DNA of 32,000 bases from Nitrosopumilus adriaticus. Its GTDB lineage: Archaea; Thermoproteota; Nitrososphaeria; Nitrososphaerales; Nitrosopumilaceae. The position numbers and the translations under genes are program-made. The stretch lies in NCBI RefSeq assembly GCF_000956175.1, contig NZ_CP011070.1, forward strand, positions 1,048,147 through 1,080,146. Direction: 5' to 3'. Positions 16,413 through 32,000 of the stretch are shown here, piece after piece. The notes under the pieces are model-generated. The model was not told the DNA's origin and ran no database searches. It worked only from the letters and a program-made list of their open reading frames with translations. The number at the start of each line of letters is the position of its first letter. The stretch's first letter is position 1.

Positions 16413-16426
16413 TCTTAGGGAAAAGC

Positions 16427-17261: not shown

Positions 17262-17346
17262 AATTTTTTATCATTCAAATTCAATATTAGTGTAAACATA
17301 AAGTAAATCATCAAATACTTATTTTCAATTAAAATATAAATTTCTC

Positions 17347-17580: not shown

Positions 17581-17770
17581 AAAAAACCACAATAAGCACT
17601 TGGACTTGCTTCAAGACTACAAAATCCACCTCATAAAATACATCGAAGAGTTAGAAAAACTAGACAAGCAATCAGAATTTGCAAAAAAATGGAATGAAAC
17701 CATCATAAAAGAAAGAAGACAAGAAGTTCAAGTTGTGGATAAAATCATAAAGAATTTGATTAGATTTTAA
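17564..17770 (+). CDS. Small helical hypothetical protein
   Basis: 68 aa. It overlaps the upstream gene by 17 nt on the same strand. Confidence 0.4.
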   Translation: MATPTEKNHNKHLDLLQDYKIHLIKYIEELEKLDKQSEFAKKWNETIIKERRQEVQVVDKIIKNLIRF

Positions 17771-18114
17771 TCATGATATTTTTGTGTTAAATCATAAAGA
17801 TTATTACAAAAATTATCAACGTGTTCTGAAGATATACCATCAAACCATGCCAACTCTTTATCCATACTAAATTTTTTTGTATTAAATGGGATTTTAGCAT
17901 GTATCAGTTCATCCTTGAATAATTGAATAATTTCTTCTTGCTCTTTTTTTGTTAGTTCATAATTACAAGTAATCAAATCAATTTGAACGTGATATTTTTC
18001 GTCATTGGGATTTATTCGTGCCTTGATGAATGGTTTGTTTAGCTGCTGGCACTCTCTGAAATGTTTGTCATACTCGAACATTTTAGAATCGCCAAGATAT
18101 TTGTGAAAAGTCAT
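17767..18114 (-). CDS. Hypothetical protein
   Basis: 115-aa ORF with no motif. Confidence 0.5.
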   Translation of the reverse strand: MTFHKYLGDSKMFEYDKHFRECQQLNKPFIKARINPNDEKYHVQIDLITCNYELTKKEQEEIIQLFKDELIHAKIPFNTKKFSMDKELAWFDGISSEHVDNFCNNLYDLTQKYHD

Positions 18115-18143
18115 TAGTTTGAAAGAAATTAAATAAACAATCT

Positions 18144-18524
18144 CTAAAGATTCAAAGTAATTTTCTTTATACGAGTAATTAATCTAATTTTTGCATCAAT
18201 TGGCATTTCAGGTTCCATAGTAAAATACACGATGTTTCTTTTTGTATAAATTACCATTTGAGAGACTTTCTCTCGCTCTACATGGACATATCTAACCTTT
18301 CCAAGTGAACGATCAAATTCTTTTCTCATTGATCTTCGTTGAGCAACCTGCTGACAGAAATGTTCTTCCTCTTTTTGATTTTTAAGGTTGGTTTTACCAG
18401 TCTTCATAATAGCTTCACGTATGTTGCCTTTGGGATCAATAATAGCCGCAAATCTCATTTTAGGATCCAAGTTTAATATTTTCTGAACAATCTCCAAAAG
18501 ATCAGTTTTTTTTGCAGATGCCAT
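18144..18524 (-). CDS. Hypothetical protein
   Basis: 126-aa ORF. Its alpha/beta pattern is vaguely Roadblock/LC7-like, which is unverified. Confidence 0.55.
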   Translation of the reverse strand: MASAKKTDLLEIVQKILNLDPKMRFAAIIDPKGNIREAIMKTGKTNLKNQKEEEHFCQQVAQRRSMRKEFDRSLGKVRYVHVEREKVSQMVIYTKRNIVYFTMEPEMPIDAKIRLITRIKKITLNL

Positions 18525-18623
18525 GTGAATTAAAAAATAATTTTGCTAAATATAAGCTATCAAACACTTTAAAGATAAAGTACGCAGAATTATAGTTAAA
18601 TTCATTTGAGAATATGACAATTC

Positions 18624-19241
18624 ATGAATGAATCAATTCTAAAGGTTCTGGAAAAATTAGAAGAACAGTCATCACTTGAAAAATCTAGGAAAGTCAATGT
18701 TTTACCAGAAGACAGGATGCTTGCAATAACCAAAGAAACAGGGGAATTACTTAACATGATTTTACGCCTAAAAAATGCAAAAAATATGCTAGAAATAGGC
18801 ATGTCAGTAGGATATTCGACAATTTGGTGTGCAGAAGCAATCAAAGAGCATTCAGGGAAAATCATATCAATTGAGCACACCCCGTCAAAAATCAAAAGAG
18901 CTAAAGAAAATTTTCTAAAAGCCGGAATTGAAGACATAATCATCATCAAGGAGGGAGAAGCAATGAATATTCTAAAGGAATTTAGTAAGAAAGAAAACTA
19001 CAGAAATTTTTTTGATTTTGTTTTAATTGATGCAGATAAGGAAAATATCATAGAATATTTTGACACAGTCCTTCCAATGGTTTCATTGCAAGGAGTGATA
19101 ATTACAGACAATATGTTGTATCCAGAAAAATATAGAGAAGATATGAAAAAATATTCAAATTATTTAAAAACAAATCCCAACATCATAACCATAACATCAG
19201 AAATTGGAAATGGTGAAGAGATTACAATTAAAATAAAATGA
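18624..19241 (+). CDS. Class I SAM-dependent O-methyltransferase (catechol-OMT-like family)
   Basis: 205 aa. It has LEIGMSVGYSTIW (motif I), GKIISIE, FDFVLIDADKENIIEYF and GVIITDNML. Confidence 0.85.
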   Translation: MNESILKVLEKLEEQSSLEKSRKVNVLPEDRMLAITKETGELLNMILRLKNAKNMLEIGMSVGYSTIWCAEAIKEHSGKIISIEHTPSKIKRAKENFLKAGIEDIIIIKEGEAMNILKEFSKKENYRNFFDFVLIDADKENIIEYFDTVLPMVSLQGVIITDNMLYPEKYREDMKKYSNYLKTNPNIITITSEIGNGEEITIKIK

Positions 19242-20681
19242 TTACTTTTTATCTTTTTTAATTTTTTTTGCAGAAGATTTCTTAGTTTGAGATTTTGTAG
19301 ATTTGGACTTTTTTTCAAGGGATTTTAATTTTTTACTTTTGGCATCAATTTGTTTTTTAATTTTTTCTTGCTCTTGTTTTAATTTTTTATTTTTAATTTT
19401 AATTTGCTTTTCTATTTTTTCATGCTTCTTTCGGAGTGAATCATAAATTTTTTCTTCTTTTTTAATTTGGGCAGTTAATTTGATCTGAGATTTTAGTTTT
19501 TCCTTTTCTTGTTGGGTCTTTTTTGAAATTAGTTCTTTTTCTTTTGAAATGTGATTGATTAAATCAAGTCTACTTTCTTTAGCTTGAATTAATTCCTCTT
19601 CTTGTTTTTGAATTAATTTTCTTAATTTTTCTGATTCCTCAAATTTTGCTTTTTCTGCATTGACTTGAGAAACAATTTCTGCATATTCTGTTTTGGTTTT
19701 TTCCAATTCTTCTTGTTTTGATTTAATCTCATGGGCGATTTTTGCCTGCTCTGCTAGGCGTGATTTTTGCTCTTCAGCCATTATAGCTAATAATTTCTGT
19801 TCATGTTCTACCTGTTTTTCAATTTCTTCCTGTTCGATTTGAGCTTGTACCAATTGCTTTTTTTGCTCAGTTAATTCGGTTTTTATTTTATTTTTTTCAG
19901 TATCAATTTGTTTCAGTATTTTTTCCCTATCTTTTTTAACTTTGATTAACTCCTCTTTTTGGGAAATAATTTCTTGCGATAGTTTTGTTTGGGTTTGAAT
20001 CCTTTCTCGTTCTTCTTTAATTTGTAATTCGAGTGTAGATTTTTCTTGGGTTAATTTTTGCTCATATTCTTTTCTGTGATTGATAAGTTGGGTTAATTTT
20101 GTACGCTGATGAGTAAGCTCATTAGAGATTTTTTCTTGTTGTTGAATTTTTTGTTCTTCATTTTGAATATGAGTGGAGATTTCTACAAGTTCTTTGGAAT
20201 CATTATTTTGATTCCATCCCTTTGGCATACTTCCACGTATATCATTTTTTGATTCAGAAAGTATCAAATCTTCTTTGTGTTGTGAGGAATGTTTTGGTGT
20301 TTGAGTTAATTCAAGAACTCCATCTTGTGATCGAATAGATGAATTGAGTTTTGATTCTAGATATTTTATGTCAGATTGATAAAGTGATTTGTTATTTACA
20401 ATCATGTCATGGATATGCTGTAATCTTCCAGGATCACCAACGCCTAACTCAATGAGTTCTTTAATTTTATACAGTAATTCATTGTCTTCATTACCAGATT
20501 CATCTTCAAGTGAGAAGGATGAGTTTAGTTTGCTTTCTAGATAAACTTGATCTGAGTGATATAGGGGCTCCCTATTTTTTACATATTCTAGTATGTGATA
20601 CAATCTACCAGCATCACCATTACCAGAATCAATTAAGGAGTTTATTTTTTCAATGGTTTCGGTTAAGCTCAATTGGTTCAA
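19242..20681 (-). CDS. Long coiled-coil protein with duplicated N-terminal module and Lys-rich tail
   Basis: 479 aa. Two ~45-aa repeats carry G-x-GD-x-GRL-x-HI...LY-x-SD-x-YLESKLNSS. About 300 aa of E/K/Q heptad-like sequence follows, ending in a KKSKSTKSQTKKSSAKKIKKDKK tail. Confidence 0.75.
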   Translation of the reverse strand: MNQLSLTETIEKINSLIDSGNGDAGRLYHILEYVKNREPLYHSDQVYLESKLNSSFSLEDESGNEDNELLYKIKELIELGVGDPGRLQHIHDMIVNNKSLYQSDIKYLESKLNSSIRSQDGVLELTQTPKHSSQHKEDLILSESKNDIRGSMPKGWNQNNDSKELVEISTHIQNEEQKIQQQEKISNELTHQRTKLTQLINHRKEYEQKLTQEKSTLELQIKEERERIQTQTKLSQEIISQKEELIKVKKDREKILKQIDTEKNKIKTELTEQKKQLVQAQIEQEEIEKQVEHEQKLLAIMAEEQKSRLAEQAKIAHEIKSKQEELEKTKTEYAEIVSQVNAEKAKFEESEKLRKLIQKQEEELIQAKESRLDLINHISKEKELISKKTQQEKEKLKSQIKLTAQIKKEEKIYDSLRKKHEKIEKQIKIKNKKLKQEQEKIKKQIDAKSKKLKSLEKKSKSTKSQTKKSSAKKIKKDKK

Positions 20682-20874
20682 GTTTTCTGGCCTCTTTTGA
20701 TTCTTTTTTATATAATTTGGTAAAGATAACTGTTTAAAAAAAATTCACATATACATGAATTTTAGGTGATTTAGCACAAAATTCAAACCCAATTATTTTC
20801 ACTAATGTAAAAACATTGCAAAGATCATCAGGCAAACTATTGCCGTTTATTAATTAGAACTAAATACCTTCGAT

Positions 20875-21099
20875 ATGAAAACAGGGTTTCCAGTAATTAT
20901 AATAGGATCAGTCATGTTTGTTGCAGGTCTAGTAATGTTCTACTCTATAGAACTTGGTCAGACAGATTCAATTTTACGATTAATCAAAAACATTGGAACA
21001 TTTATCGGTCTGGCTGGAATGGGTGTTACTTTGGCAGGAATTTTACTAAACTTGATTAGTAAAAATCAACAACCAATACAAGAAAATTTTGATGTATAA
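20875..21099 (+). CDS. Small two-TM membrane protein
   Basis: 74 aa with two hydrophobic helices. Confidence 0.55.
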   Translation: MKTGFPVIIIGSVMFVAGLVMFYSIELGQTDSILRLIKNIGTFIGLAGMGVTLAGILLNLISKNQQPIQENFDV

Positions 21100-21189
21100 T
21101 CACTAGGAAACATTAGGTAGTCATCAGAAAATATCTGTACATATTATTTCAAAACTAAATTATATCTTCAAATTTTAGATGGATTGTAA

Positions 21190-21615
21190 ATGCCAGGCAA
21201 ATTTTGGATTGGATCAATCTATTTGAAAGATGAGGGGGGTTATGAGATAGTAATCAAGTCATTGAATCATTATAGAAATAGACTGAAAACCATTGGTAAT
21301 AGTCCAGAGTTAAAAGATGCGGCTGCAATGTTTTCATCAGTTTTAAATCAACAAGCAGTAAAAACAATCCCCAAAATTGATGAAATGTTACTAAAAATAC
21401 AAAATAGTCTATCAGATACTAATGAATTGAAGAAATTAGAAGAAGATATTCCATTTATAGAAAAAGCCCTTTCTTGTTATGATGCAGACATAAAGAAAGC
21501 ACAAGACACCGGTCACGAATATTTTGTGAAACTTATTGGTAATATGGTTGAAGCTAGAGACGATCTAAATACCATAAAAATTGCATTGCAAAAAATAAAA
21601 CAATTTTCAGAATAA
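21190..21615 (+). CDS. Hypothetical protein
   Basis: 141-aa ORF with no motif. Confidence 0.55.
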   Translation: MPGKFWIGSIYLKDEGGYEIVIKSLNHYRNRLKTIGNSPELKDAAAMFSSVLNQQAVKTIPKIDEMLLKIQNSLSDTNELKKLEEDIPFIEKALSCYDADIKKAQDTGHEYFVKLIGNMVEARDDLNTIKIALQKIKQFSE

Positions 21616-21617
21616 TT

Positions 21618-21848
21618 TTACAATCCTTGCAAATACCAATCCAAGTATGGCATTAAAGCCTTGCATTGCTTCTTTTTTTCGGATTCATCATCTAAATCTA
21701 AAATCTTTTGCATTTTACCCTGAAGGTATTCAGATGTTAAATTGCTTTTAAATTCAGGCATCATTTTTTCTAGAACTTCTAGAATTTGTGTTGAAGATGC
21801 ATTCTCAAAGTCATCAATGATCATAGAGACTTTTTCTGCTAACGACAT
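21618..21848 (-). CDS. Hypothetical small protein
   Basis: 76-aa ORF. Confidence 0.45.
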   Translation of the reverse strand: MSLAEKVSMIIDDFENASSTQILEVLEKMMPEFKSNLTSEYLQGKMQKILDLDDESEKKKQCKALMPYLDWYLQGL

Positions 21849-21885
21849 AAGATTATTTTAAAAATCCCATTATTATTTGATTCAG

Positions 21886-22113
21886 CTAGAGAACGTCTTC
21901 ATCATCCCAAGTAAGGCGAAATTTTCCAGTTACTCTAAACATGTGCAGTTTTCCACCTTTCTTGAAATTTAATTTATATGATTTATGTGAGGATTCTTCG
22001 ATGTCTATACTGACATTGTCTTTTATGGTTTGAAAGACGATTGGATTATTAGAAATTTGTTTCCAGTCATTTTCATCAAAATCAAGGTAAAATTTTGTAT
22101 ATAACAATCCCAT
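21886..22113 (-). CDS. Hypothetical small protein
   Basis: 75-aa ORF. Confidence 0.45.
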   Translation of the reverse strand: MGLLYTKFYLDFDENDWKQISNNPIVFQTIKDNVSIDIEESSHKSYKLNFKKGGKLHMFRVTGKFRLTWDDEDVL

Positions 22114-22155
22114 AATTATGGGTGCACTATCCCGAATAAATAACTAGATGAGATT

Positions 22156-22734
22156 CTATTTATTTAATGAATTTTGAGGCATCATAAATTCCAAATAACT
22201 GACTATAGCTGGAAATATAATCTCAGAATGAGGATCATTTCGAATTATTTCAAAAACCTTGTGAATTAGTTGTTGTATTTCCAAGTGCTCATCTTTGTAC
22301 AATGTCTTTTTAGGATTTTTAACAGCATCCAAAATTGTAAATCCATTATCCGTTTGTAGCAGATTTCTTAATATCAAATTAGCCATGTTTATTTTTTCAT
22401 CAATGTCTTTATGCGGATAATCAGTATCCAGTCGCTTAATCAGAGACTTTAAATCATGAAAATAATTTGTAGTGTTTCGTTCTACTTGATGTTGGGATTT
22501 TACCTCAAAATTGTTTGAAGGAGTATAAAATTTCATATTTGCTTTTGTAATTACAGTGATGATTTCTTTATCAATTAGCATATCGCGTGTTTTTTCAAAT
22601 GTTGTTTTTGCCATAAATTCTGGAACAATTAATTTCATCAATGCATTATGGTGCAAATCTGGATTTTTTCGAATTATTTCAAGAACTATCCTCTCACGCT
22701 CATATGTTTTCAGATTAGGCTCATATTGACTCAT
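22156..22734 (-). CDS. Winged-helix transcriptional regulator (predicted)
   Basis: 192 aa. The N-terminal ERIVLEIIRKNPDLHHNALMKLI...TRDMLIDKEIITV fits a wHTH pattern. Palindromic sites lie just upstream. Confidence 0.55.
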   Translation of the reverse strand: MSQYEPNLKTYERERIVLEIIRKNPDLHHNALMKLIVPEFMAKTTFEKTRDMLIDKEIITVITKANMKFYTPSNNFEVKSQHQVERNTTNYFHDLKSLIKRLDTDYPHKDIDEKINMANLILRNLLQTDNGFTILDAVKNPKKTLYKDEHLEIQQLIHKVFEIIRNDPHSEIIFPAIVSYLEFMMPQNSLNK

Positions 22735-22741
22735 TTTAACT

Positions 22742-22769
22742 AGGTCGACCTATATTATACAGGTCACCT
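22742..22769. promoter_or_regulatory. Candidate operator: two copies of a palindromic AGGTC(G)ACCT box
   Basis: AGGTCGACCT (22742-22751) is a perfect palindrome. AGGTCACCT (22761-22769) follows, and both are followed by AT. They start 8 nt upstream of the wHTH gene start, in the divergent intergenic region. Confidence 0.35.
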
Positions 22770-22954
22770 ATTAATCAATATCGGTCTTGAAGTTTACAGA
22801 GAAATTATCCATCGATATTAAATACAAATTTTGTGAGACAAATCACCTAACACATGTGGGGTTTGATGAGAAATCATCAATATTTCACAGTAAATAATAC
22901 CTAATTTTTGTACGTTCAAGGCATTCAAACATCTGAATATTATCCCAAAAACTC

Positions 22955-23965
22955 ATGAAGATTATGGGATTTTACAATTCAACTATTTTGGTGATTGAGG
23001 ATAGTAAGGCAGTACGAATTATGCTATCTCAATATATTAAAAAAATTGGATTTAGCAAAATTATCGAATCTGAAACGGGTGAAGAGGGAATTAGAAAATT
23101 TAATGAATTAGTGGAGATTGAAATCACACCCATTGTTTTTGTAGGATATCATTTGCCAGACATGAGTGCAGCTGAAATAATTCCAAACATATTATCAAAA
23201 ATGCCAATTACAAAAATTATTCTAGAAACATCAAAAGACAGACATGAAGAATCAGTTCGAAGCTTATTTTCATTAGGGATTTCTCATTATATGCCAAAAC
23301 CATTACGTTTTGAAAATATGAAAGAGGTGATCAGAACAATAAAAGAGGAATTTGAGCTTGATGAGACATTGGGGGTGGAGACAGAATCAGATAGAATCAA
23401 GGAACATTTGAAAGCAGTTCATCGAACGAGCATAACTAGAATTTCACAAAATTGTGGATTGTCAACAAAACAAGTTTTAACATATTTACAGAAATTAAAG
23501 TCTAAAGGAGATGTCATGCAAATGAATTCAATTAGAGAAATTTTATGCTCCAATTGCAATTCAGTTAATACATCAACAATATTTTCTTGCCCAAAATGTG
23601 CAAGTTCAAATTTTTCTGAAACAAGATTAATAGAGCATTATGATTGTGGCTCAGTTCATCCAGATATTATGTTTAAAGATGATATTTGCCCCCAATGTCA
23701 AAAAGAGATCAAAGCATTAGGAGTGGATTATAGAATAATGTCAAATTTATTTATCTGTAAAGACTGCACAGAAAGATTCCCAAATCCAGATATTGATATG
23801 AACTGCATCAAATGTGGGAATAAATTTACCTTCTTTGATGGGAAATGGATTGACAGTCCAACATTCATGTGGATGAAAGAGCCATTAGAATCTGAGAATA
23901 CTGATGAGGAAATCACCAATCAAGAGATTATGAATACAATTTCCAATTCAAATCAGATGGTATAA
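22955..23965 (+). CDS. Atypical receiver (REC)-domain protein fused to wHTH and multiple zinc ribbons
   Basis: 336 aa. It has a CheY-like ILVIEDSKAVRIML...YMPKPL. A central HTH reads SITRISQNCGLSTKQVLTYLQKLKSKGDV. Four to five CxxC pairs sit in the C-terminal third. Confidence 0.8.
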   Translation: MKIMGFYNSTILVIEDSKAVRIMLSQYIKKIGFSKIIESETGEEGIRKFNELVEIEITPIVFVGYHLPDMSAAEIIPNILSKMPITKIILETSKDRHEESVRSLFSLGISHYMPKPLRFENMKEVIRTIKEEFELDETLGVETESDRIKEHLKAVHRTSITRISQNCGLSTKQVLTYLQKLKSKGDVMQMNSIREILCSNCNSVNTSTIFSCPKCASSNFSETRLIEHYDCGSVHPDIMFKDDICPQCQKEIKALGVDYRIMSNLFICKDCTERFPNPDIDMNCIKCGNKFTFFDGKWIDSPTFMWMKEPLESENTDEEITNQEIMNTISNSNQMV

Positions 23966-24027
23966 TTTGTTTATTGTTTAAGCCCATATCCAATAAGCTT
24001 AAGTTTAGAATTATTCTAAAAAAAATC

Positions 24028-24144
24028 ATGGATCTAAATGAATTGCATCAAAAAGAGATTGATTCGCTTAGAGATGAAAATATCGAATTGAGAAACAAAG
24101 TAAAAAAACTCGAAGAGAGAATTCAGGAATTAGAGAAAAAATGA
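24028..24144 (+). CDS. Tiny charged helical protein (38 aa), first of ATGA-linked chain; absent from the ORF track
   Basis: My translation gives MDLNELHQKEIDSLRDENIELRNKVKKLEERIQELEKK. Its stop overlaps the next ATG (ATGA). Confidence 0.45.
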   Translation: MDLNELHQKEIDSLRDENIELRNKVKKLEERIQELEKK

Positions 24145-24281
24145 CCTCATTTGAAGAGAAAATTAGAGAAAAGATGGTAAAACAGAAAGAAAAGTATGAA
24201 GAATATAAGAAAAAAGAAGGGGATTCAGACCTGCTCTTTAATGAAAAAGACAATAAGAGCAAAATCAAAGATGAAGAATGA
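24141..24281 (+). CDS. Tiny charged protein (46 aa), second of ATGA-linked chain
   Basis: My translation gives MTSFEEKIREKMVKQKEKYEEYKKKEGDSDLLFNEKDNKSKIKDEE. It has ATGA overlaps at both ends. Confidence 0.45.
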   Translation: MTSFEEKIREKMVKQKEKYEEYKKKEGDSDLLFNEKDNKSKIKDEE

Positions 24282-24448
24282 CTGAAAAATCTACTGATGT
24301 TTACTCAGAAATTGATGAAGAGTTGGAGTTCACAGACGAGCAAACTCAAGAACTTTTGAAGTTAAACGAAAAAGAAATCCAAATTTTAATTCTTTCAGAA
24401 TTAAAAAAAATCACATCACTTCTTAATCAAAGAAAATCAAAGAGATGA
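24278..24448 (+). CDS. Tiny acidic/helical protein (56 aa), third of ATGA-linked chain
   Basis: My translation gives MTEKSTDVYSEIDEELEFTDEQTQELLKLNEKEIQILILSELKKITSLLNQRKSKR. It has ATGA overlaps at both ends. Confidence 0.45.
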   Translation: MTEKSTDVYSEIDEELEFTDEQTQELLKLNEKEIQILILSELKKITSLLNQRKSKR

Positions 24449-25173
24449 AACTTGAAATCATAATTGCGTTGATTTTGATTGGGACATTTGGAATAAGTGA
24501 ATCATTTGCAAAAGAATCAAAAATTCCCAATTGGGTATTGCAGGTTTATGGCTTTTGGATAGAAGATAAAATTTCAGATGTAGAACTAGTTAATGCAGTA
24601 AAATTCCTAAATGAAAACAACATCTTGCCATTAGCACTACAAAAGGAATATGACTATAAATCAAATTTTTTATTGACTGTATTGTATGAAGACTTTGCAT
24701 ACAAAGAAAATTCGTGTGATGATGGATGGTATGTTACAGGATACTTCATACCTGTAGAATCAGATTACTCCAGTCATATATTCGAAATTAAAATTGATGA
24801 TCATCTCTTCGAATATGATTATGATTTTGTAAATTCTGTGAAAATGGAAGGATGGGGCAGAACAAATGATGGGGATTATTTGGGGTGGTATTCAAATGAA
24901 TTTCATCTAAATAAAATCCCGCTAGATAATTTTGGAAACTCACTAAAAGTTGGAACCATTGCCATTGATCCTTCATTATATGAATTAGGCTCAAAAATAT
25001 TCATTTCAACTCTGCTTGAGCCATGGGATGAAGTAATTTTTACTGCCAATGATGTCGGAGAATCAGTAAAGAACAAGCACATTGATGTTTTTACAGGAGA
25101 AGGTAGTCAGGCTGAAGAGGAGACCTACAGGATTACAGGATACAACAATGTCGCATGTTTTATTGATGAATAA
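24445..25173 (+). CDS. Secreted 3D-domain (MltA-like double-psi beta-barrel) protein
   Basis: 242 aa with the signal peptide MKLEIIIALILIGTFGISESFA. The C-terminal half reads YVTGYFIPVESDY...VKMEGWGRTNDGDYLGW...TIAIDPSLYELGSKIFIS...FTANDVGESVKNKHIDVFTGEG. It contains the three Asp positions of the 3D domain. Confidence 0.7.
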   Translation: MKLEIIIALILIGTFGISESFAKESKIPNWVLQVYGFWIEDKISDVELVNAVKFLNENNILPLALQKEYDYKSNFLLTVLYEDFAYKENSCDDGWYVTGYFIPVESDYSSHIFEIKIDDHLFEYDYDFVNSVKMEGWGRTNDGDYLGWYSNEFHLNKIPLDNFGNSLKVGTIAIDPSLYELGSKIFISTLLEPWDEVIFTANDVGESVKNKHIDVFTGEGSQAEEETYRITGYNNVACFIDE

Positions 25174-25209
25174 TTTTCAGGTTTAATTTTTTAATATTCA
25201 CTTTAGAAT

Positions 25210-25422
25210 CTATGAATTTATGAATACTTTGGAGTTTGACACTATAATCATTTCAGCCATTGAAACTGGAATGTTTTCTTTATTTGAAATATCAAGAATT
25301 TCATCAACATGTAATTCTTTCAAGTGTTTTATGAATTCCTTCTCCTCAATATCATTTCGTTTGTAATTGCAAGAGGTGAAAACACAGTTGAAATTCATTG
25401 GTTTCGGTTGAATTTTGTGCAT
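25210..25422 (-). CDS. Hypothetical small protein, possible C2H2-like zinc finger
   Basis: 70 aa. The C-x4-C ... H-x4-H spacing (CVFTSC...HLKELH) is a weak zinc-finger signal. Confidence 0.4.
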   Translation of the reverse strand: MHKIQPKPMNFNCVFTSCNYKRNDIEEKEFIKHLKELHVDEILDISNKENIPVSMAEMIIVSNSKVFINS

Positions 25423-25484
25423 TTTTATCCTTTATTCATAAAATAGAGGACTTCTTTTAATGCTAAAAATGTCATTTCACATTA

Positions 25485-25991
25485 TTGCAAAAAACATCCC
25501 TCATGTTCGGATTGATAGTTATTTTCTTTATTGGGATGATTTCAATTGTAACAGCTGACTCTGACGAACAGTATTTGGAGATCAAAAAAATCTATGATGA
25601 TCAGAGATGGGATCTTGAAAAAGAATTCAAAGAAAAATTCAAAGAATCAAGTAATTTCTTTAAAGATCAAAAACAAGCAATCCAGGAAAAAAGTAAATCT
25701 GATCCAACATTAACTGCTGAACAAATCAATCAAATGCTAAGAGATGTTTTTTATGAGTTTGTTGATAGACAAGAAGAAATCAAAACAGAATACAAATCCA
25801 AAGTAGATGCACTTGATGCAATGTTTGAAAAAAAATTTGAAGAATTTGATGATGGGATTCCACTTTGGATTAAAAAAGTGACTGAATTAAGGAATGAAGG
25901 AAAAATCTCCGATTCCGAATATGTTAATTTTTTGTCATTTTTACTCAGTAATGGCATAATAGTAGATGAGCAATTGAGATTTTTATCTTAA
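25485..25991 (+). CDS. Secreted helical protein with C-terminal IP-x-W...KISD-x-E module
   Basis: 168 aa from a TTG start, with an ATG at 25503. It has a signal/anchor FGLIVIFFIGMISIVTA. Its C-terminal module is shared with 24445-25173. Confidence 0.6.
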   Translation: MQKTSLMFGLIVIFFIGMISIVTADSDEQYLEIKKIYDDQRWDLEKEFKEKFKESSNFFKDQKQAIQEKSKSDPTLTAEQINQMLRDVFYEFVDRQEEIKTEYKSKVDALDAMFEKKFEEFDDGIPLWIKKVTELRNEGKISDSEYVNFLSFLLSNGIIVDEQLRFLS

Positions 25992-26482
25992 CTAAACGCA
26001 TATTTTTTGACAATATTCCATTTGTCAATGTCTTCATGGAATTTTTGAATCCACATTCCAGTTACTTTAAAATGATCTTTGATTGAAATAGAATTTGCTA
26101 ATTTTTGCTGCTCATCTTGATTCATTTTTTTGTAAATCAAACTTGCGTGTGGAATAAACTCATATTTTGAAAAATATTCAAGAGGTTCTGTTAATTTTTT
26201 GTTTATTCTTATCAATTGCTCATTTGGCTTAAATTCAACAAACAATGTCTTCCAAAAAACATCTGAATATGAAATTTTACTTTTTTCAATTACAAAAGAT
26301 TTTTGCCCTTGGATACTATTTGTAACGATTTTATCTAATTTCTCAAGATCTACATCAACTAATCCATAAGCAGTAATGTGAGGTTTGAATGACTGAGAGT
26401 TATATTTTGTACTCAATTCTTGAATAATATTTGTAAAATACTCTGCATCATTTTTTTCAAATACAAACCAAACAGCATACAT
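25988..26482 (-). CDS. 2H phosphoesterase superfamily protein (LigT/cyclic phosphodiesterase-like)
   Basis: 164 aa with two H-x-T/S-x motifs (KPHITAYG and IPHASLIY) at the expected spacing. Confidence 0.6.
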   Translation of the reverse strand: MYAVWFVFEKNDAEYFTNIIQELSTKYNSQSFKPHITAYGLVDVDLEKLDKIVTNSIQGQKSFVIEKSKISYSDVFWKTLFVEFKPNEQLIRINKKLTEPLEYFSKYEFIPHASLIYKKMNQDEQQKLANSISIKDHFKVTGMWIQKFHEDIDKWNIVKKYAFS

Positions 26483-26580
26483 TATGATTTGGTTAAATTC
26501 TACAATTTTTAATTATAACGTGAGTTATTGCCAACTAACTACGCACAAAAGGGGACGTAATCGTTCATAAAAATAAATTT

Positions 26581-26934
26581 TCAGATTTCTAACAATTTTT
26601 GTTCTAGTTGTTCCATTTTTTCATCACCACATTCCTCTGTATTCTCAATTGCACAGAATTCCCGTACTTCATTAAATGCATCAAGACATGATTGTAATTC
26701 TTCAGGATTAAGATTGTCTTCACTACATGCAATCATCATTGCTTCATAATTTATTGTAAATTGCTCTAACATCCATCTTTTGGTATCCATGCTTTCTAAA
26801 ATATCGAAATCACCAATACTAGTTCCAAAATAAACAATCCCTGCAAGTATGGGTAAAATCAGAAGAAATTTTAATTTAGATTTCATTATCGATGACATTG
26901 CCCAATTATTTGATTGACCATATTTATAGATCAA
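26581..26934 (-). CDS. Small secreted/anchored hypothetical protein
   Basis: The ORF runs from a TTG at 26934. The start is more likely an ATG at 26898 or 26886 (MKSKLKFLLILPILAGIVYFG). The mature part is Cys-containing and acidic. Confidence 0.5.
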   Translation of the reverse strand: MIYKYGQSNNWAMSSIMKSKLKFLLILPILAGIVYFGTSIGDFDILESMDTKRWMLEQFTINYEAMMIACSEDNLNPEELQSCLDAFNEVREFCAIENTEECGDEKMEQLEQKLLEI

Positions 26935-26944
26935 AATTTAGAAT

Positions 26945-26969
26945 TATGAACTTGAACATATTGGAAAAA
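26945..26969. repeat. Copy A of 25-nt direct repeat TATGAACTTGAACATATTGGAAAAA
   Basis: It matches 30739-30763 at 23 of 25 positions. The flanking TCAAAATT is also shared after a 5-nt indel. Confidence 0.6.
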
Positions 26970-27007
26970 AATTAATCTTAATGAATAGCCTTTCTTACTT
27001 TTAATTG

Positions 27008-27391
27008 TCAATTCAGTGATTCTTGAATTCTATCGGTATCAGTAAACTGTCTGAACTGAACAATTTTGTTATCTTGGATATGATAAACATGTGAAAATGA
27101 AACATCAAAAGATTTCCCAGTATTTGAGATACCATGATATTTTCCAGTCACCATAATGTGGTCTTTCATATTTGAGATATTTTCTGGAATGGCATGAAAT
27201 TCTTTAAAGTTTGATAACATTTTTGGAAAGTATTCATTGAAGACTGCATCTTTTCCTACAAACTTTCCTCCATTTGGCATACCATCAGCTAACTGCCATT
27301 CAATATTTTCGTCACACAAAGCAAGATAGGTCTCTTGGTCATTATTTTTGAAAGCATGATAGAATTTTTTTATCAATTCCACATTTGACAT
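27008..27391 (-). CDS. SnoaL-like / NTF2-fold protein
   Basis: 127 aa. ELIKKFYHAFKNNDQETYLALCDENIEWQ...GKFVGKDAV is the typical SnoaL_2/ketosteroid-isomerase-like opening. Confidence 0.7.
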   Translation of the reverse strand: MSNVELIKKFYHAFKNNDQETYLALCDENIEWQLADGMPNGGKFVGKDAVFNEYFPKMLSNFKEFHAIPENISNMKDHIMVTGKYHGISNTGKSFDVSFSHVYHIQDNKIVQFRQFTDTDRIQESLN

Positions 27392-27460
27392 GAAATAATT
27401 TTTGAATAATGTAATAATAACTAATTTCCAACAAATAAACTCAAATCACAATCTTAGTTA

Positions 27461-27478
27461 TTCCCAACTTTTTGGGAA
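27461..27478. promoter_or_regulatory. Perfect palindrome TTCCCAA-N4-TTGGGAA in the intergenic region left of the Cas1 block
   Basis: Seen directly in sequence: 7-bp arms with a 4-nt spacer. It lies 70 nt upstream of the SnoaL-like gene start. Confidence 0.25.
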
Positions 27479-27665
27479 CAAAAAGAAATTTGCCCTTTTA
27501 CTCTTTATCAATAAAAAGGCAGAGCCCCCCGTTTACGAATAAAATTATGACGGTTCTCGTAAAGCTTATTTCATAACCTCACAAAAACAGAACATATCTC
27601 AATCAACTAATCCTTATTCTAAACGAAAAATTCCTAAAAAATATGGATGGCCTATCATCATTTTT

Positions 27666-28142
27666 GTGATTGTAATCACAGTTGTAGTAAATGCTCATCA
27701 ACATATTCCAACTGAAACTCCTGAGGAAAAAAAAGAAATCAATAGTTTTTTCACCGCAGCCATGATTTCTTTGCTTAGTGGAACTCTAATTTTGCTAAAA
27801 AAGGGATTGAATGAGAAATATGTCACAGATTCTTTTCAAATTTTACTTTTGATGATTACTCCGTTTTCTGCATTTATTCCTATTTTAGGTAAAGTTGAAA
27901 CTTTTTGGATAATATTGCCAGTTTATTATGCTGTGATAACCTCTTGGTTTCTATTTGTTGATGATCTGGTTATAGGAAATACTGAAAGAGAGGAAGATGG
28001 AAATCGTAAAAGAAATGTTGAACAAAATTATGCTTTCAAAACAAACTTGAGAGTTTACATGATTCTAATGGGTTTGTCAGTGGCTATTTTTTATTGGTAT
28101 TTTCTGCTTATTGTACCTCAAGCTAATAATGTTACAAATTGA
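27666..28142 (+). CDS. Multi-pass membrane protein, start/stop-coupled to cas1
   Basis: 158 aa from a GTG start with about four TM helices. Its stop TGA overlaps the TTG start of cas1 (TTGA). The frame stays open upstream to 27543 without a canonical start. Confidence 0.5.
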   Translation: MIVITVVVNAHQHIPTETPEEKKEINSFFTAAMISLLSGTLILLKKGLNEKYVTDSFQILLLMITPFSAFIPILGKVETFWIILPVYYAVITSWFLFVDDLVIGNTEREEDGNRKRNVEQNYAFKTNLRVYMILMGLSVAIFYWYFLLIVPQANNVTN

Positions 28143-29152
28143 CTCAAAAAGGTCAGAAAAATCACTACAACATAAAATTTCTCAAAGGCTACGGTCACTC
28201 AATATCAGTAAAAGATTCCAAAATAATTCTCAAATCAAACCATGATCCATTTTCTAAACCAGAACAAGAAGAGTGGTTTGTCAAAAATATGCCTTATGAG
28301 AAAATAGTTCTTTCCGGTAAGGGATATGTTTCAACTGAAGCATTATCATTACTTTCTCAAAATAACAGAAATATCATTTTACTTGATAATCATGGAAAGC
28401 CAGTCAGTTTCTGTCATTCTATGATGGATTCACTGACTGCAACCAAATACCGCATGGCACAGTATGATACATTTCGAAATCCTGAGAAGTGTAAGTATCT
28501 GCGTAAGCAAATCATATCTGCGAAGCAACAATCCCAACTAAAACTACTCAGATTAATTGGCAGTGACATTACTGAACTCCCAGAGAAAGAGAATGCTTCG
28601 GCTAGAAAATATTGGTTAGAATTTGCTAAATTTATTCCTGAAAAATATAATTTTCAGTCACGAAATCAATCTCATATACGCAGTAGCAAGAATAATGCAA
28701 CTGACATCATCAATGCTTTATTGAACTACGGGTATTCTGTACTGGCAGGGGAAATCTCAAAATTTGTTTGTGGGTTTGGGTTGGATCCTTATTTTGGATT
28801 CATGCACAAAACCCATACTGGATTTCAACCCTTAGTGTATGACATCATAGAACCATTTCGCTGGTTAGTTGATAATTCTGTTTATACTATTGCAAACAAC
28901 AAAGAGAAGAGAAATAGAATCAAACTCAAAGAGTATAGTTACACAAAAGATGGAACTATAGTAATTGAGTATGCTTTGATCAAACGATTCTTGGAATTGT
29001 TAGAAAGGCAATTTTCTAAAGAAATAAAGTTTGACTTTAGGCACGGAAAGAAGACAAAATTGGGATTGAAATCCGTTCAAGAGATAACGGTTGGAAAAAT
29101 TTACGTTCAAAATTTAATAGATTATTGTACTATGGAAAAGTCGATTTTTTGA
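28139..29152 (+). CDS. cas1: Stand-alone Cas1 integrase (Cas1-solo / casposase-like)
   Basis: 337 aa with a TTG start. Hallmarks are E-NASARKYW (catalytic Glu context), DIINALLNYGYSVL, GLDPYFGFMH (catalytic His) and LVYDIIEPFRWLVD (catalytic Asp/Glu). The N-terminal beta domain reads NIKFLKGYGHSISVKDSKIIL. Confidence 0.85.
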   Translation: MTQKGQKNHYNIKFLKGYGHSISVKDSKIILKSNHDPFSKPEQEEWFVKNMPYEKIVLSGKGYVSTEALSLLSQNNRNIILLDNHGKPVSFCHSMMDSLTATKYRMAQYDTFRNPEKCKYLRKQIISAKQQSQLKLLRLIGSDITELPEKENASARKYWLEFAKFIPEKYNFQSRNQSHIRSSKNNATDIINALLNYGYSVLAGEISKFVCGFGLDPYFGFMHKTHTGFQPLVYDIIEPFRWLVDNSVYTIANNKEKRNRIKLKEYSYTKDGTIVIEYALIKRFLELLERQFSKEIKFDFRHGKKTKLGLKSVQEITVGKIYVQNLIDYCTMEKSIF

Positions 29153-29773
29153 TTTAGGAATTCTACTTAGCCACTCAGTCACAAGATCACACATGTTTTT
29201 TGAGAAAATATTCATCATTGCAGTATATTTAGGAAAACTTACTTTGATCAGTACTCCTTTATCATCTTCGTAAACAAATTTTCCATGTTCCCACCACCAT
29301 GATGAGTGACCTAGCATATTGCGAAGGTCTTTTGGAAATAAGTTTTGGAAATCTTTGAAACAAATTTCTTGGGAAATGCCTACAATTAATGTTCCAAGAG
29401 GTATTTTCAAAGAAATCTTTTGTTTCTTTTTACCAATTTTGACACCTTCTTTCAAATTTTCTATCAAAAATAGACGATGTGCTTCAATGTAGTTTAAACT
29501 ATGAAAAATAAAATAATTTGCAATTAATCGCCTTGAGTGAATGTCATCAATAAAAAAACTATTTTTGTTATTATTTGAAAACTGTTTTAATTTATGTTGG
29601 TCGTTGAAAACCTTTTCAAATTCTTTGTAAGTCTTTCCTGACTCTTGGATATTTTTTAGGATATGTTGCGTTCTTACATTAAATTTTGGAAATTGTTTGT
29701 AATCGGTTAATCCATGTTTTTCTAAAAGATCAAAAAATTTTTTTATAATTTTTTTGTTGGTTTGTGTCGACAT
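29114..29773 (-). CDS. Hypothetical protein with HEPN-type R-N-x3-H motif
   Basis: 219 aa and mostly helical. It carries DLRNMLGH at 29306-29323. Its 3' end overlaps the cas1 3' end by 39 nt (convergent). Confidence 0.6.
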   Translation of the reverse strand: MSTQTNKKIIKKFFDLLEKHGLTDYKQFPKFNVRTQHILKNIQESGKTYKEFEKVFNDQHKLKQFSNNNKNSFFIDDIHSRRLIANYFIFHSLNYIEAHRLFLIENLKEGVKIGKKKQKISLKIPLGTLIVGISQEICFKDFQNLFPKDLRNMLGHSSWWWEHGKFVYEDDKGVLIKVSFPKYTAMMNIFSKNMCDLVTEWLSRIPKSKNRLFHSTIIY

Positions 29774-29785
29774 GGTATAAAGATA

Positions 29786-30733
29786 TTAGAAAACTCCCAA
29801 AGATTTGAGAATTGAATCTAAATTGGAAATTATTGTGGTAATAGTCCCATGAGCACTAGGAACTGCCTGCAATATACCGTGAATTGATTTTAATCCGTCT
29901 GACACTATTTGTCTATTGGGTGAATCAGATTTGGTTTGCAATTCTATAGATTCTATTTGAGAAATAATTTTTTCTTTAACAGAATCTTGTAATGTTTCCA
30001 TCGAATTTTTCATCTGAGAAATCAAATCATTAATGGCAGCTAAATCATTTTGTTTAATAGTTTGATTTGAATTAATCGTGCCCACTTGAAGATTTGAATT
30101 ATTCATTTCCCCAACGGTTACATTGTAAACAGTTGTAGGTGATGCTTCATTAGAATCTGAATCATTATTATTTGATTCTGCTTTTTTTAGATTTTTATCA
30201 AATTTTTCTCTAGATTGTGCCATTAATTGATCTAATCTTTGATCATCAATCAAATCAGGATGGCTAGAAATTGCAAGATAATATGCAGTGTATTTTCCTG
30301 AATTGAGTTTTATAATACGCGTTTTATATGAAACCAAACTTGGGTGTGTATCATCTTGATGTTCGGAGAGTACTGATGAATACATACAAACTTTTTCAAA
30401 TAATTGATTTAATCCAGTATGATCCACACGTCCATTATTTTTGTTGATTTCTAAAAATCGATTAAGAGATTTTTGATCAGACTCAAAATTTACAACAACA
30501 TATGCTTCTCTATTTCTATTAGCCCAATCTTTGATATGATCCTGTAATCGATTAACTTCATCATCATATGGTGTAATGAATGCCATCACCATTCCAGTTT
30601 TAACTAATTCTTGAAAATCCACTTCATCTCCATTTCTAATACTGTCCCAAATTTTTCTTGGATATGGCACATCCATAAATGAAGTAATGTTTCCCCTAGG
30701 TTGTTGTTCTGCATCACTCATAATCCTTTTCAA
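29786..30733 (-). CDS. Hypothetical protein (311-315 aa), upstream partner of the HEPN-motif gene
   Basis: The ORF runs from a TTG at 30733, with a likely ATG at 30721 (MSDAEQQ). It lies 12 nt upstream of the next gene. It has an N/S-rich linker and a helical C-terminal tail. No known motif recognised. Confidence 0.6.
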   Translation of the reverse strand: MKRIMSDAEQQPRGNITSFMDVPYPRKIWDSIRNGDEVDFQELVKTGMVMAFITPYDDEVNRLQDHIKDWANRNREAYVVVNFESDQKSLNRFLEINKNNGRVDHTGLNQLFEKVCMYSSVLSEHQDDTHPSLVSYKTRIIKLNSGKYTAYYLAISSHPDLIDDQRLDQLMAQSREKFDKNLKKAESNNNDSDSNEASPTTVYNVTVGEMNNSNLQVGTINSNQTIKQNDLAAINDLISQMKNSMETLQDSVKEKIISQIESIELQTKSDSPNRQIVSDGLKSIHGILQAVPSAHGTITTIISNLDSILKSLGVF

Positions 30734-30738
30734 AATTG

Positions 30739-30763
30739 TATGAACTTAAGCATATTGGAAAAA
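30739..30763. repeat. Copy B of 25-nt direct repeat TATGAACTTAAGCATATTGGAAAAA
   Basis: It matches 26945-26969 at 23 of 25 positions. Confidence 0.6.
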
Positions 30764-30791
30764 GTAATACACTAAAAAAATAACTAAGATC

Positions 30792-31457
30792 ATGGAACTG
30801 GATGAACAATTAATTAAAATGGGAAAATTATGTTCGATTTATGAAAAGCAATTCCTTCAATTTAGCGATATTGTGCCTTATGTTGATAATGATTGGACTT
30901 TAACCAAATCTCCATTATTGGCTTCAATTCTACTGGGCATTGGACCCCAAATAGAGGCAATGACCAAAATAATTTTCAATGCTTTGGGATTCACAACAGA
31001 AAAAAACAAACCTGGGTTTTGGGATTATTATCCCGAATTAAACCAGAAGAGGATGTTTACTAGTCATTCAGTCATTCTTAAAAATTCAGCATATCAAGGA
31101 TACAAAATACTTCATCCATTTAACGAATTAGGAAGTAATACAGACAATGTTATGTGGTGGGAGGCATACAATAAACTCAAGCATTCTCTTCCGGAAGGAT
31201 TAGAATATGGTTCATTACAAAACACAATTCATGGACTTGCCGCTCTTTCAAGTCTTTTACATATTGCATATGAAATTAAATTAAATTTAACAAAAGAGCG
31301 TGATTTTATTTTGGATTCAAAAAATTGGCATATTACAAATTTGGGAGTTTTTGAAGGTAGAAATGAATGGCCCCCAGTTCAAAATCCATTACATAAAATT
31401 TTAGATTGGAAGTCTGAATTATTTTTCTTTGATAACGTATTGACACTTCGTGTTTAA
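30792..31457 (+). CDS. Hypothetical protein with WWEAYNKLKH motif
   Basis: 221-aa helical ORF. The N-x3-K-H motif at 31155-31184 could be a divergent HEPN-like helix, which is unverified. Confidence 0.6.
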   Translation: MELDEQLIKMGKLCSIYEKQFLQFSDIVPYVDNDWTLTKSPLLASILLGIGPQIEAMTKIIFNALGFTTEKNKPGFWDYYPELNQKRMFTSHSVILKNSAYQGYKILHPFNELGSNTDNVMWWEAYNKLKHSLPEGLEYGSLQNTIHGLAALSSLLHIAYEIKLNLTKERDFILDSKNWHITNLGVFEGRNEWPPVQNPLHKILDWKSELFFFDNVLTLRV

Positions 31458-31511
31458 TGAAAATGTATGCAACACAGATGAATGATACTCAAATGGAATT
31501 GGTCTAAAAAC

Positions 31512-32000
31512 ATGGCAAAAAAATCACAGTGGACTGGTGGAATATTAGGAGTTGCACGTTTTTCTTATAGAATAATCGACAATCCGCCAACGTTAAAAAT
31601 CAGATATTCAATGCCTGAAGGATCGGGAATTTGTACTGATGTAAACCATTCCATGATACGTCCTTTTAGAAAAATTCTTAATGATGCAAAATATCCCGGA
31701 AAAATCACATATGTTTTCATTCGTGATGAAAAAAAGTATCATGTACTAGGAGCATTTAGCCATACCAACAGAAACATCATATTTTTCCCTGGTGTGGTAG
31801 ACAAAAGACTTCTCAATTTTGGAGAAGATGAGTTATTATCAAATGGAATTGAAAAACACGTAGATCATTTTACGCTAGAGAATAATTTGGATTCTTGGCA
31901 TGTTACTGTTCAAGAAAAAGAATTTGACGGTACAAGATTCAAATCACAAAAAACAAAAAAAATTGATGAAAATAATTACTTGTGGTTCATTTTCAAGATA
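31512..32000 (+). CDS. Hypothetical protein (3' end outside window); absent from the ORF track
   Basis: From the ATG at 31512 the frame is open for 163 codons to the window edge (MAKKSQWTGGILGVARFSYRIIDNPP...). No motif recognised. Confidence 0.5.
   Translation, partial: MAKKSQWTGGILGVARFSYRIIDNPPTLKIRYSMPEGSGICTDVNHSMIRPFRKILNDAKYPGKITYVFIRDEKKYHVLGAFSHTNRNIIFFPGVVDKRLLNFGEDELLSNGIEKHVDHFTLENNLDSWHVTVQEKEFDGTRFKSQKTKKIDENNYLWFIFKI

What the first reader, a model, noticed from the sequence alone, without database searches (positions are those of the whole stretch)
28139..29152. Stand-alone Cas1 with no CRISPR array, cas2, cas4 or PolB visible
The 337-aa product carries the full Cas1 signature and the catalytic Glu/His/Asp contexts: ENASARKYW, GLDPYFGFMH and YDIIEPFR. 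It therefore looks active rather than decayed. I found no spaced direct repeats in the 32 kb, no Cas2-sized partner, and no ORF with PolB motifs. By established knowledge, Cas1 outside CRISPR loci in Nitrosopumilus-type archaea is normally the casposase of a family-1 casposon. Such elements also carry a protein-primed PolB, terminal inverted repeats and target-site duplications. None of that context is visible here. Either the element continues past 32000, it is a degraded casposon, or this Cas1 has been recruited into a different module.
Basis: partly seen in the sequence, partly recalled or inferred. Interest (0 to 1): 0.85.

Follow-up and report, generated by a model that had tools for sequence, protein, structure and literature searches.

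The report
Left end of known casposon NitNF5-C1
The "lonely" Cas1 gene is the integrase of NitNF5-C1, a self-replicating transposon (casposon) already catalogued in Nitrosopumilus adriaticus; it only looks alone because the 32-kb window cuts the 19.4-kb element off 2.9 kb before its DNA polymerase gene.

Summary
The ORF at 28139-29152 is a real, intact Cas1 (Pfam Cas_Cas1, E=2e-42). The window holds no CRISPR array, cas2, cas4 or PolB. But it is not stand-alone. The protein is 100% identical to WP_048116294.1 of Nitrosopumilus adriaticus NF5. Krupovic et al. 2019 (PMC6563490) list that protein as the casposase of the family-1 casposon NitNF5-C1 (CP011070 1075658..1095033, 19,376 bp).

All published gene coordinates map onto window ORFs with one offset of 1,048,146. 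The published 27-nt target-site duplication is found exactly at 27491-27517, and the 43-nt terminal inverted repeat at 27512-27554. The duplication contains the 13-bp target ATTGATAAAGAGT that was defined experimentally for the 84%-identical N. koreensis casposase. It is a displaced copy of the ef-2 gene's 3' end.

The element's protein-primed PolB (WP_048116317.1, 592 aa, same contig) would lie at window-equivalent 34887-36665, 2.9 kb past the window end.

Verdict: already known, low interest. Minor side observations are a NitNF5-C1-type TIR remnant beside NitAR1-C1, common tandem junctions at ef-2, and a possible defence-like cargo gene.

The parts
27491..27517 (-). Distal copy of the target-site duplication, which is a displaced copy of the ef-2 3' end. 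The reverse complement reads ...TTT ATTGATAAAGAGT AAAA and encodes ...FIDKE*. The 13-bp core ACTCTTTATCAAT lies at 27500-27512.
   Evidence: It matches the published NitNF5-C1 TSD exactly, and 0/100 shuffles gave a match. The core equals the experimentally defined 13-bp TSD of the N. koreensis casposase. The translation matches the EF-2 C-terminus of AR1.
27512..27554 (+). Left terminal inverted repeat of casposon NitNF5-C1 (AAAAA-GGCAGAG-CCCCCC-GTTTACGAATAAAATTATGACGGT).
   Evidence: It matches the published TIR exactly. It aligns with the termini of other family-1 casposons, sharing the invariant AAAAA and C6 tracts, and is 88% identical to a terminus in L004. C6/G6 tracts are rare in the window, with only 3 found.
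27512..32000 (+). The first 4,489 bp of the 19,376-bp casposon NitNF5-C1. The rest would occupy window-equivalent 32001-46887.
   Evidence: A single offset of 1,048,146 maps the published element and all six gene coordinates onto window ORFs.
27666..28142 (+). RS06380, a 158-aa hypothetical protein with about 4 hydrophobic segments. Its stop overlaps the casposase start by 4 nt.
   Evidence: ORF. No hit in Pfam, NCBIfam, PADLOC or PHROGs. Listed in NitNF5-C1.
28139..29152 (+). Casposase: a family-1 Cas1 homologue of 337 aa with no C-terminal HTH. It is RS06385 / WP_048116294.1.
   Evidence: It is 84% identical to the biochemically characterised N. koreensis casposase. Its best solved-structure hit is the M. 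mazei casposase 6opm.
29114..29773 (-). RS06390, a 219-aa element-specific cargo gene of unknown function.
   Evidence: No family hit. No homologue in any of the 23 related loci.
29786..30733 (-). RS06395, a cargo gene. The published start is at 30721 (311 aa) and the longest ORF starts at 30733 (315 aa). The C-terminal ~100 aa resemble the PADLOC defence candidate PDC-M14B.
   Evidence: The PADLOC hit has E=1.6e-9 over residues 203-308.
30792..31457 (+). RS06400, a 221-aa protein of arCOG13752. The published table also lists this arCOG next to Cas1 in NitAR2-C1.
   Evidence: A weak PHROG hit of unknown function.
31482..32000 (+). The 5' part of RS06405 (309 aa in the genome), cut by the window end.
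   Evidence: The frame stays open to the last base. Published coordinates are 1079628..1080557.

Best explanation
The Cas1 at 28139-29152 is the casposase (integrase) of NitNF5-C1. This is a 19.4-kb family-1 casposon of Nitrosopumilus adriaticus NF5, already described by Krupovic et al. 2019. The window contains chromosome up to about 27511 and then the left end of the element. That end consists of a displaced copy of the ef-2 3'-terminal target site, the left TIR, a small membrane-protein ORF coupled to the casposase gene, the casposase, and four element-specific cargo genes.

The remaining ~14.9 kb lies beyond base 32000. It holds three small conserved genes, the protein-primed PolB, OLD, HNH and NERD nucleases, a XerC-like recombinase and the right TIR. 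A second casposon, NitNF5-C2, and ef-2 itself follow.

Mechanism, inferred from the 84%-identical N. koreensis enzyme: the casposase joins the 3'-OH ends of the TIRs to the two strands flanking the 13-bp sequence ATTGATAAAGAGT at the 3' end of ef-2. Gap repair then duplicates that sequence. The element's own pPolB is presumed to copy the element by protein-primed synthesis.

Shown here: the identity of the protein, the exact TSD and TIR, the mapping of gene coordinates, and a pPolB on the same contig. Inferred: the catalytic activity of this particular casposase, the replication mode, and whether the element is still mobile.
For: (1) The protein is 100% identical to WP_048116294.1/AJW71030.1 of N. 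adriaticus. That accession is listed as the Cas1 of NitNF5-C1.
(2) The published element coordinates 1075658..1095033 and six gene coordinates all map to window ORFs with one offset. Each mapped ORF has a proper start and stop.
(3) The published TSD and TIR are found exactly at 27491-27517 and 27512-27554, where the offset predicts them.
(4) The TSD contains the experimentally determined 13-bp target ATTGATAAAGAGT, flanked by TTT/AAA. It also encodes the EF-2 C-terminus FIDKE*.
(5) The TIR aligns with the termini of NitAR1-C1 and other family-1 elements.
(6) The homologues at 84%, 80% and 79% identity, in L002, L004 and L005, sit 4.7-5.3 kb upstream of a PF03175 pPolB.
(7) N. adriaticus encodes a 592-aa PF03175 polymerase, WP_048116317.1/AJW71040.1, on the same 1.80-Mb contig. 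It is ten GenBank numbers after the Cas1, and its accession and length are those listed for the NitNF5-C1 pPolB.
(8) The best solved-structure match is a casposase, 6opm, rather than a CRISPR Cas1. The protein also lacks the C-terminal HTH, as family-1 casposases do.
Against: I could not read the DNA beyond base 32000. N. adriaticus was not returned by the genome-contig scan, and the contig look-ups found no record for either protein. So the position of the pPolB, the right TIR and the right TSD rest on the published table plus the accession match, not on sequence I inspected.

The right ~10 kb of the published element carries a XerC recombinase and nucleases that are atypical for family 1. 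The published right boundary could therefore enclose a nested or adjacent element.

No experiment shows that this particular casposase or element is active.
Confidence: 0.96

Rival explanations
1. It is a degraded or immobilised casposon. The Cas1 belongs to a casposon relic that has lost its polymerase or one terminus and can no longer move.
For: Decayed relics do exist in relatives. Cas1 N-terminal fragments of ~130 aa occur in L009, L010 and L012, a truncated pPolB occurs in L004, and a lone TIR lies beside NitAR1-C1 in L002. NitNF5-C1 is unusually large and carries a XerC recombinase, so it may be a composite.
Against: The casposase is full length with all catalytic motifs. The left TIR and TSD are intact. 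The pPolB is full length at 592 aa, against 594 aa in NitAR1-C1. The published analysis reports TIRs and TSDs for the element.
Confidence: 0.03
2. It is a genuinely solo Cas1 recruited into a non-casposon, non-CRISPR module, for example together with the neighbouring membrane protein and unknown genes.
For: Within the window, none of the neighbours (RS06380, RS06390, RS06395, RS06400, RS06405) has a homologue in the other casposon loci examined. RS06380 is translationally coupled to Cas1.
Against: The gene sits 150 bp to 1.6 kb inside a canonical casposon terminus with an ef-2-derived TSD. Element-specific cargo is the rule in family 1. A cognate pPolB is on the same contig, ten genes downstream.
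Confidence: 0.01
3. It is a CRISPR adaptation Cas1 whose array and cas2 lie outside the window.
For: Database names call it a 'CRISPR-associated endonuclease Cas1'. It also passes the generic TIGR00287 cas1 cut-off.
Against: No subtype-specific Cas1 model reaches its cut-off. There is no array or cas2 in the 32 kb. The published 21-gene list of the element contains no cas2 and no array. Its closest characterised relative is a casposase.
Confidence: 0

Closest known systems
NitNF5-C1, family-1 casposon of Ca. Nitrosopumilus adriaticus NF5 (Krupovic et al. 2019, Environ Microbiol 21:2056; PMC6563490)
   Same: It is the same element. The Cas1 accession is identical, and the TSD and TIR strings, gene sizes, order and spacing all match.
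   Different: Nothing differs. The window simply contains only its first 4,489 of 19,376 bp.
NitAR1-C1 of Ca. N. koreensis AR1, whose casposase was characterised biochemically (PMC8464041)
   Same: The casposase is 84% identical, of similar size (337 vs 347 aa) and also lacks an HTH. The 13-bp target ATTGATAAAGAGT at the ef-2 3' end is the same. The TIR shares the AAAAA-N6/7-CCCCCC architecture. A small ORF lies immediately upstream of Cas1, and the pPolB is of the PF03175 type.
   Different: The TIR flavour differs (GGCAGAG vs TAGAAT before the C6 tract). The orientation relative to ef-2 is opposite. The cargo between Cas1 and pPolB is unrelated, and the element is 19.4 kb rather than 8.2 kb. 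NitNF5-C1 sits in a tandem array, distal to ef-2.
Family-2 casposons (AciBoo-C1; M. mazei casposase, PDB 6opm)
   Same: They use a Cas1-fold integrase. 6opm is the best solved-structure hit (E=1.4e-28), with the aligned Glu/His/Asp-Glu motifs conserved. They also have TIRs and a TSD of about 14 bp.
   Different: Family-2 casposases carry a C-terminal HTH and are 404-405 aa. Those elements use a different PolB and target tRNA genes.
CRISPR-Cas adaptation module (Cas1-Cas2)
   Same: The Cas1 fold is homologous, and the chemistry of staggered integration that generates a repeat duplication is the same.
   Different: There is no Cas2 and no CRISPR array. The protein passes only the generic Cas1 models, and no subtype model reaches its cut-off.

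Membership tests
Family-1 casposon | Encodes a Cas1-family casposase | tested here: met
   PF01867 E=2.2e-42 and TIGR00287 E=3.7e-41. It is 84% identical to the characterised N. koreensis casposase.
Family-1 casposon | [quoted passage not shown] | tested here: met
   The protein is 337 aa with only the Cas1 domain found. The alignment to the 431-residue 6opm chain ends at chain residue 296. The paper states that family 1 lacks the HTH.
Family-1 casposon | [quoted passage not shown] | tested here: met
   It is not in the window. WP_048116317.1 (592 aa, PF03175) is on the same 1.80-Mb contig. It is listed at 1083033..1084811, which is window-equivalent 34887-36665. Its position rests on the published table, because I could not read the DNA.
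Family-1 casposon | Terminal inverted repeats at both ends | tested here: inconclusive
   The left TIR is present exactly at 27512-27554 and is homologous to the termini of other family-1 elements. The right TIR lies outside the window, and only the published report supports it.
Family-1 casposon | A target-site duplication flanking the element | tested here: inconclusive
   The left copy is present at 27491-27517 and contains the 13-bp core ATTGATAAAGAGT. The right copy is outside the window, near the published C1/C2 junction at 1095033-1095040.
Family-1 casposon | Three or four conserved small genes (arCOG14321, arCOG14992) immediately upstream of the pPolB | not testable with these tools
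   They are listed at 1082116..1083054, window-equivalent 33970-34908, which is outside the sequence available to me. Homologues were seen upstream of the pPolB in L002, L004 and L005.
Family-1 casposon | Integration at the 3' end of ef-2. This is the most common target but not a universal one. | tested here: met
   The TSD copy in the window encodes the EF-2 C-terminal residues FIDKE plus the stop, as at the AR1 ef-2 junction. The paper reports tandem insertion of C1 and C2 into ef-2.
CRISPR-Cas adaptation module | cas2 adjacent to cas1 | tested here: not met
   None of the neighbouring ORFs has a Cas2 domain. None appears in the published 21-gene list.
CRISPR-Cas adaptation module | A CRISPR repeat-spacer array nearby | tested here: not met
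   No spaced direct-repeat array was found in the 32 kb and there is no Rfam hit.

The most novel reading that the evidence does not exclude
NitNF5-C1 may be more than a plain casposon. The Cas1-proximal cargo in the window includes a membrane-protein ORF translationally coupled to the casposase, and the RS06390/RS06395 pair with a PDC-M14B-like C-terminal domain. Together with the downstream OLD, HNH and NERD nucleases and the XerC recombinase, this would make it a hybrid, dual-integrase element that ferries an antiviral defence island. The ef-2 landing pad would then be a turnover hotspot where two TIR flavours of casposon compete. Signs of this are the tandem junctions in L004, L007 and L009, and a NitNF5-C1-type TIR remnant beside NitAR1-C1 that the papers read here do not mention.
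Probability: 0.15. Interest if true: 0.35.

Novelty: already known. Interest (0 to 1): 0.07.

Why it matters
It matters little as a discovery. The element, its boundaries, its TIR and TSD, and its gene content were published in 2019, and a close homologue of the casposase was dissected biochemically in 2021.

The useful lesson is methodological. A Cas1 within a few kb of a window edge should not be called 'solo'. In Nitrosopumilaceae, the short signature [ATTGATAAAGAGT-like ef-2 tail]-AAAAA-N6/7-CCCCCC is a quick diagnostic of a family-1 casposon terminus. C6 tracts are rare in these AT-rich genomes, with only 3 in this 32-kb window.

Tried and rejected
- **Reading past base 32000.** The look-up of encoding contigs found no record for the window Cas1, for P0001 or for the pPolB P0233. 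The genome-contig scan did not return N. adriaticus. Scans of metagenome and viral contigs with P0233 found only pPolBs of 30-66% identity and none of the window's cargo genes.
- **Generic inverted-repeat search.** It gave only AT-rich pairs of 70-84% complementarity. None framed the Cas1; for example, I2 (24597/29122) is a chance match. This is as expected when the partner TIR lies outside the window.
- **Extra copies of the 13-bp target.** One-mismatch hits at 17853-17865 and 24311-24323 lack the adjacent AAAAA-N6/7-C6 TIR and lie inside ORFs. I rejected them as chance.
- **The low-GC region 16-27.5 kb as a further tandem casposon.** It has no TSD or TIR, no Cas1 and no PolB. The only link is a 28%-identical paralogue of a NitAR1-C1 cargo gene. 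This reading is not supported.
- **CRISPR adaptation module.** Rejected: there is no array, no cas2, and no subtype-specific Cas1 model above its cut-off.
- **Annotating cargo ORFs.** Pfam, NCBIfam, PHROGs and PADLOC gave only one partial hit, PDC-M14B for RS06395.

Full report
**1. The observation**

The ORF at 28139-29152 (+, TTG start, 337 aa) is a bona fide Cas1. Pfam Cas_Cas1 gives E=2.2e-42 and NCBIfam TIGR00287 gives E=3.7e-41. No CRISPR-subtype-specific Cas1 model reaches its cut-off.

They align residue for residue with the equivalent motifs of the Methanosarcina mazei casposase structure 6opm. That structure is the best solved-structure hit (E=1.4e-28) and scores ahead of every CRISPR Cas1.

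- There is no spaced repeat array, no tRNA and no Rfam family.
- None of the 20 ORFs scanned has a Cas2, Cas4 or PolB domain.
- tblastn with a casposon pPolB finds nothing in the window.

**2. What it really is**

The protein is 100% identical to the Cas1 of Nitrosopumilus adriaticus, WP_048116294.1/AJW71030.1. Homologues of 65-85% identity are widespread in Nitrosopumilaceae.

The 84%-identical homologue in Ca. N. koreensis AR1 lies directly after ef-2. A PF03175 protein-primed PolB starts 4.7 kb downstream of that Cas1's start. The 80% and 79% homologues in L004 and L005 show the same arrangement. This suggested that the polymerase would fall just past base 32000 here.

Krupovic et al. 2019 (PMC6563490) describe two family-1 casposons, NitNF5-C1 and NitNF5-C2, integrated in tandem at ef-2 in Ca. 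N. adriaticus NF5. Their supplementary tables give the following:
- NitNF5-C1 is CP011070 1075658..1095033, 19,376 bp.
- Its TSD is TGCCCTTTTACTCTTTATCAATAAAAA.
- Its TIR is TAAAAAGGCAGAGCCCCCCGTTTACGAATAAAATTATGACGGT.
- Its Cas1 is RS06385 (1076285..1077298), accession WP_048116294.1.

A single offset of 1,048,146 maps RS06380, RS06385, RS06390, RS06395, RS06400 and the start of RS06405 onto window ORFs with correct start and stop codons. The same offset predicts the element's left end at window 27512. The published TSD is found exactly at 27491-27517 and the TIR at 27512-27554, with 0 of 100 shuffles giving any match.

**3. Independent cross-checks**

*The target site.* The experimentally defined 13-bp TSD of the N. 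koreensis casposase is 5'-ATTGATAAAGAGT-3', with a TTT leader. Its exact reverse complement is at window 27500-27512, flanked by TTT and AAA. In that orientation the sequence reads ...FIDKE*, which is the C-terminus of EF-2 as at the AR1 junction. The left flank of the element is therefore a displaced copy of the ef-2 3' end. That is what one expects at the ef-2-distal end of a tandem casposon array.

*The terminus.* The terminus aligns with those of NitAR1-C1 and with elements in L004, L007, L008, L009 and L012. They share invariant AAAAA and C6 tracts. A terminus in L004 is 88% identical over 51 nt. C6/G6 tracts are rare, with only 3 in the window, and only the one at 27525 sits next to a target-site copy.

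*The polymerase.* N. adriaticus encodes a 592-aa PF03175 polymerase, P0233 = WP_048116317.1/AJW71040.1, on the same 1,803,090-bp contig. This is the accession and the length listed for the NitNF5-C1 pPolB, RS06435 at 1083033..1084811. That is window-equivalent 34887-36665, which is 2,887 bp beyond the window end. The GenBank numbers AJW71030 and AJW71040 are ten apart, matching the ten-gene spacing in the published list.

*The flank.* DNA left of 27512 is ordinary chromosome: purF, purL, tatC, purP-like DUF1246/DUF1297, trkH, an O-methyltransferase, SnoaL and others.

**4. How it works**

By homology with the N. koreensis enzyme (PMC8464041), the casposase joins the TIR 3' ends to both strands flanking the 13-bp target at the ef-2 3' end. 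Repair then duplicates the 13 bp. Like other family-1 casposases it lacks the C-terminal HTH of family 2. The element's pPolB is presumed to replicate the element by protein priming, which follows from established knowledge of the family (Krupovic 2014 and 2019).

The identity, the terminus and the target are shown here. The activity of this particular copy is inferred.

**5. Limits**

I could not read the sequence past base 32000. Scans of metagenome and viral contigs with the C1 pPolB found no close relative. The pPolB position and the right TIR and TSD therefore rest on the published table plus the accession match. The right ~10 kb of the published element (OLD, HNH, NERD, XerC) is atypical for the family and could be a nested element. 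The authors themselves note that NitNF5-C1 is an outlier.

**6. Comparison and novelty**

This is the already published NitNF5-C1. The apparent 'solo' status is a window-edge artefact.

**7. Side observations**

- Directly after the right TSD of NitAR1-C1 in L002 lies GGCAGTCCCCCCTCCTTACG..., a TIR of the NitNF5-C1 flavour. This suggests a remnant of a second element in AR1.
- Junctions between two tandem casposons occur in L004, L007 and L009. L004's left element has a truncated pPolB that is 82% identical to the C1 pPolB. Cas1 N-terminal fragments occur in L009, L010 and L012. Tandem insertion and decay at ef-2 therefore seem common.
- The C-terminal ~100 residues of RS06395 hit the PADLOC defence candidate PDC-M14B at E=1.6e-9.
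- None of the window's cargo genes has a homologue in the 23 related loci. [quoted passage not shown]

Noticed in passing
L002 17566-17610 (N. koreensis AR1, CP003842 ~663508-663552): Immediately after the right TSD of NitAR1-C1 lies GGCAGTCCCCCCTCCTTACGTACG..., a terminus of the NitNF5-C1 flavour (compare window 27518-27554). It looks like a solo TIR or the start of a second, decayed tandem element. No partner TIR or third TSD copy occurs in the remaining 3.4 kb of the locus. The papers read here do not mention it.
   Followed up: partly
L004 9560-9705; L007 9409-9460; L009 2425-2480: These are back-to-back casposon termini (G6-TIR | ef-2-like target | C6-TIR), meaning family-1 casposons in tandem. 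Two TIR flavours occur: AAAAA-TAGAAT-C6 and AAAAA-GGCAGAG-C6. L004's left element has a TIR 88% identical to the window's and only a C-terminal pPolB fragment (8684-9130), which is 82% identical to the NitNF5-C1 pPolB.
   Followed up: partly
L009 3007-3396; L010 5164-5562; L012 8077-8478: Only the first ~130 residues of the casposase are encoded, in the interior of the loci. In L010 the fragment is ~0.8 kb downstream of ef-2, and in L012 it is near a pPolB fragment. These look like decayed casposon relics.
   Followed up: no
window 29786-30733 (-), with 29114-29773 (-): The C-terminal ~100 aa of cargo gene RS06395 match the PADLOC defence-candidate family PDC-M14B (E=1.6e-9). Its downstream neighbour RS06390 has no family hit. 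This may be defence cargo carried by the casposon.
   Followed up: partly
window 27666-28142 (+): A 158-aa ORF with about 4 hydrophobic segments ends 4 nt inside the casposase start, so the two appear translationally coupled. Every family-1 casposon in the published table has a small ORF at this position, but in different sequence clusters.
   Followed up: partly
window 22156-22734 (-); region ~16000-27500: A 192-aa protein is 28% identical to the NitAR1-C1 cargo gene NKOR.03895 (arCOG10540). It lies in a lower-GC stretch, 0.26-0.32 against 0.31-0.38 further left. That stretch is full of small hypothetical ORFs. No casposon terminus was found there.
   Followed up: partly
window 16986-17261 (-): A 91-aa PIN-like protein (DUF5615 / Mut7-C) overlaps the end of a 188-aa ORF with no family hit (16427-16993, opposite strand). 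The PIN-like protein is toxin-like.
   Followed up: no
window 19242-20681 (-): A 479-aa Lys/Glu/Gln-rich protein that looks like a coiled coil, with an internal duplicated N-terminal motif and 54-nt tandem repeats. The region has strong AT skew.
   Followed up: no
window 22955-23965 (+): A response-regulator receiver domain fused to the thaumarchaeal output domain TackOD1.
   Followed up: no
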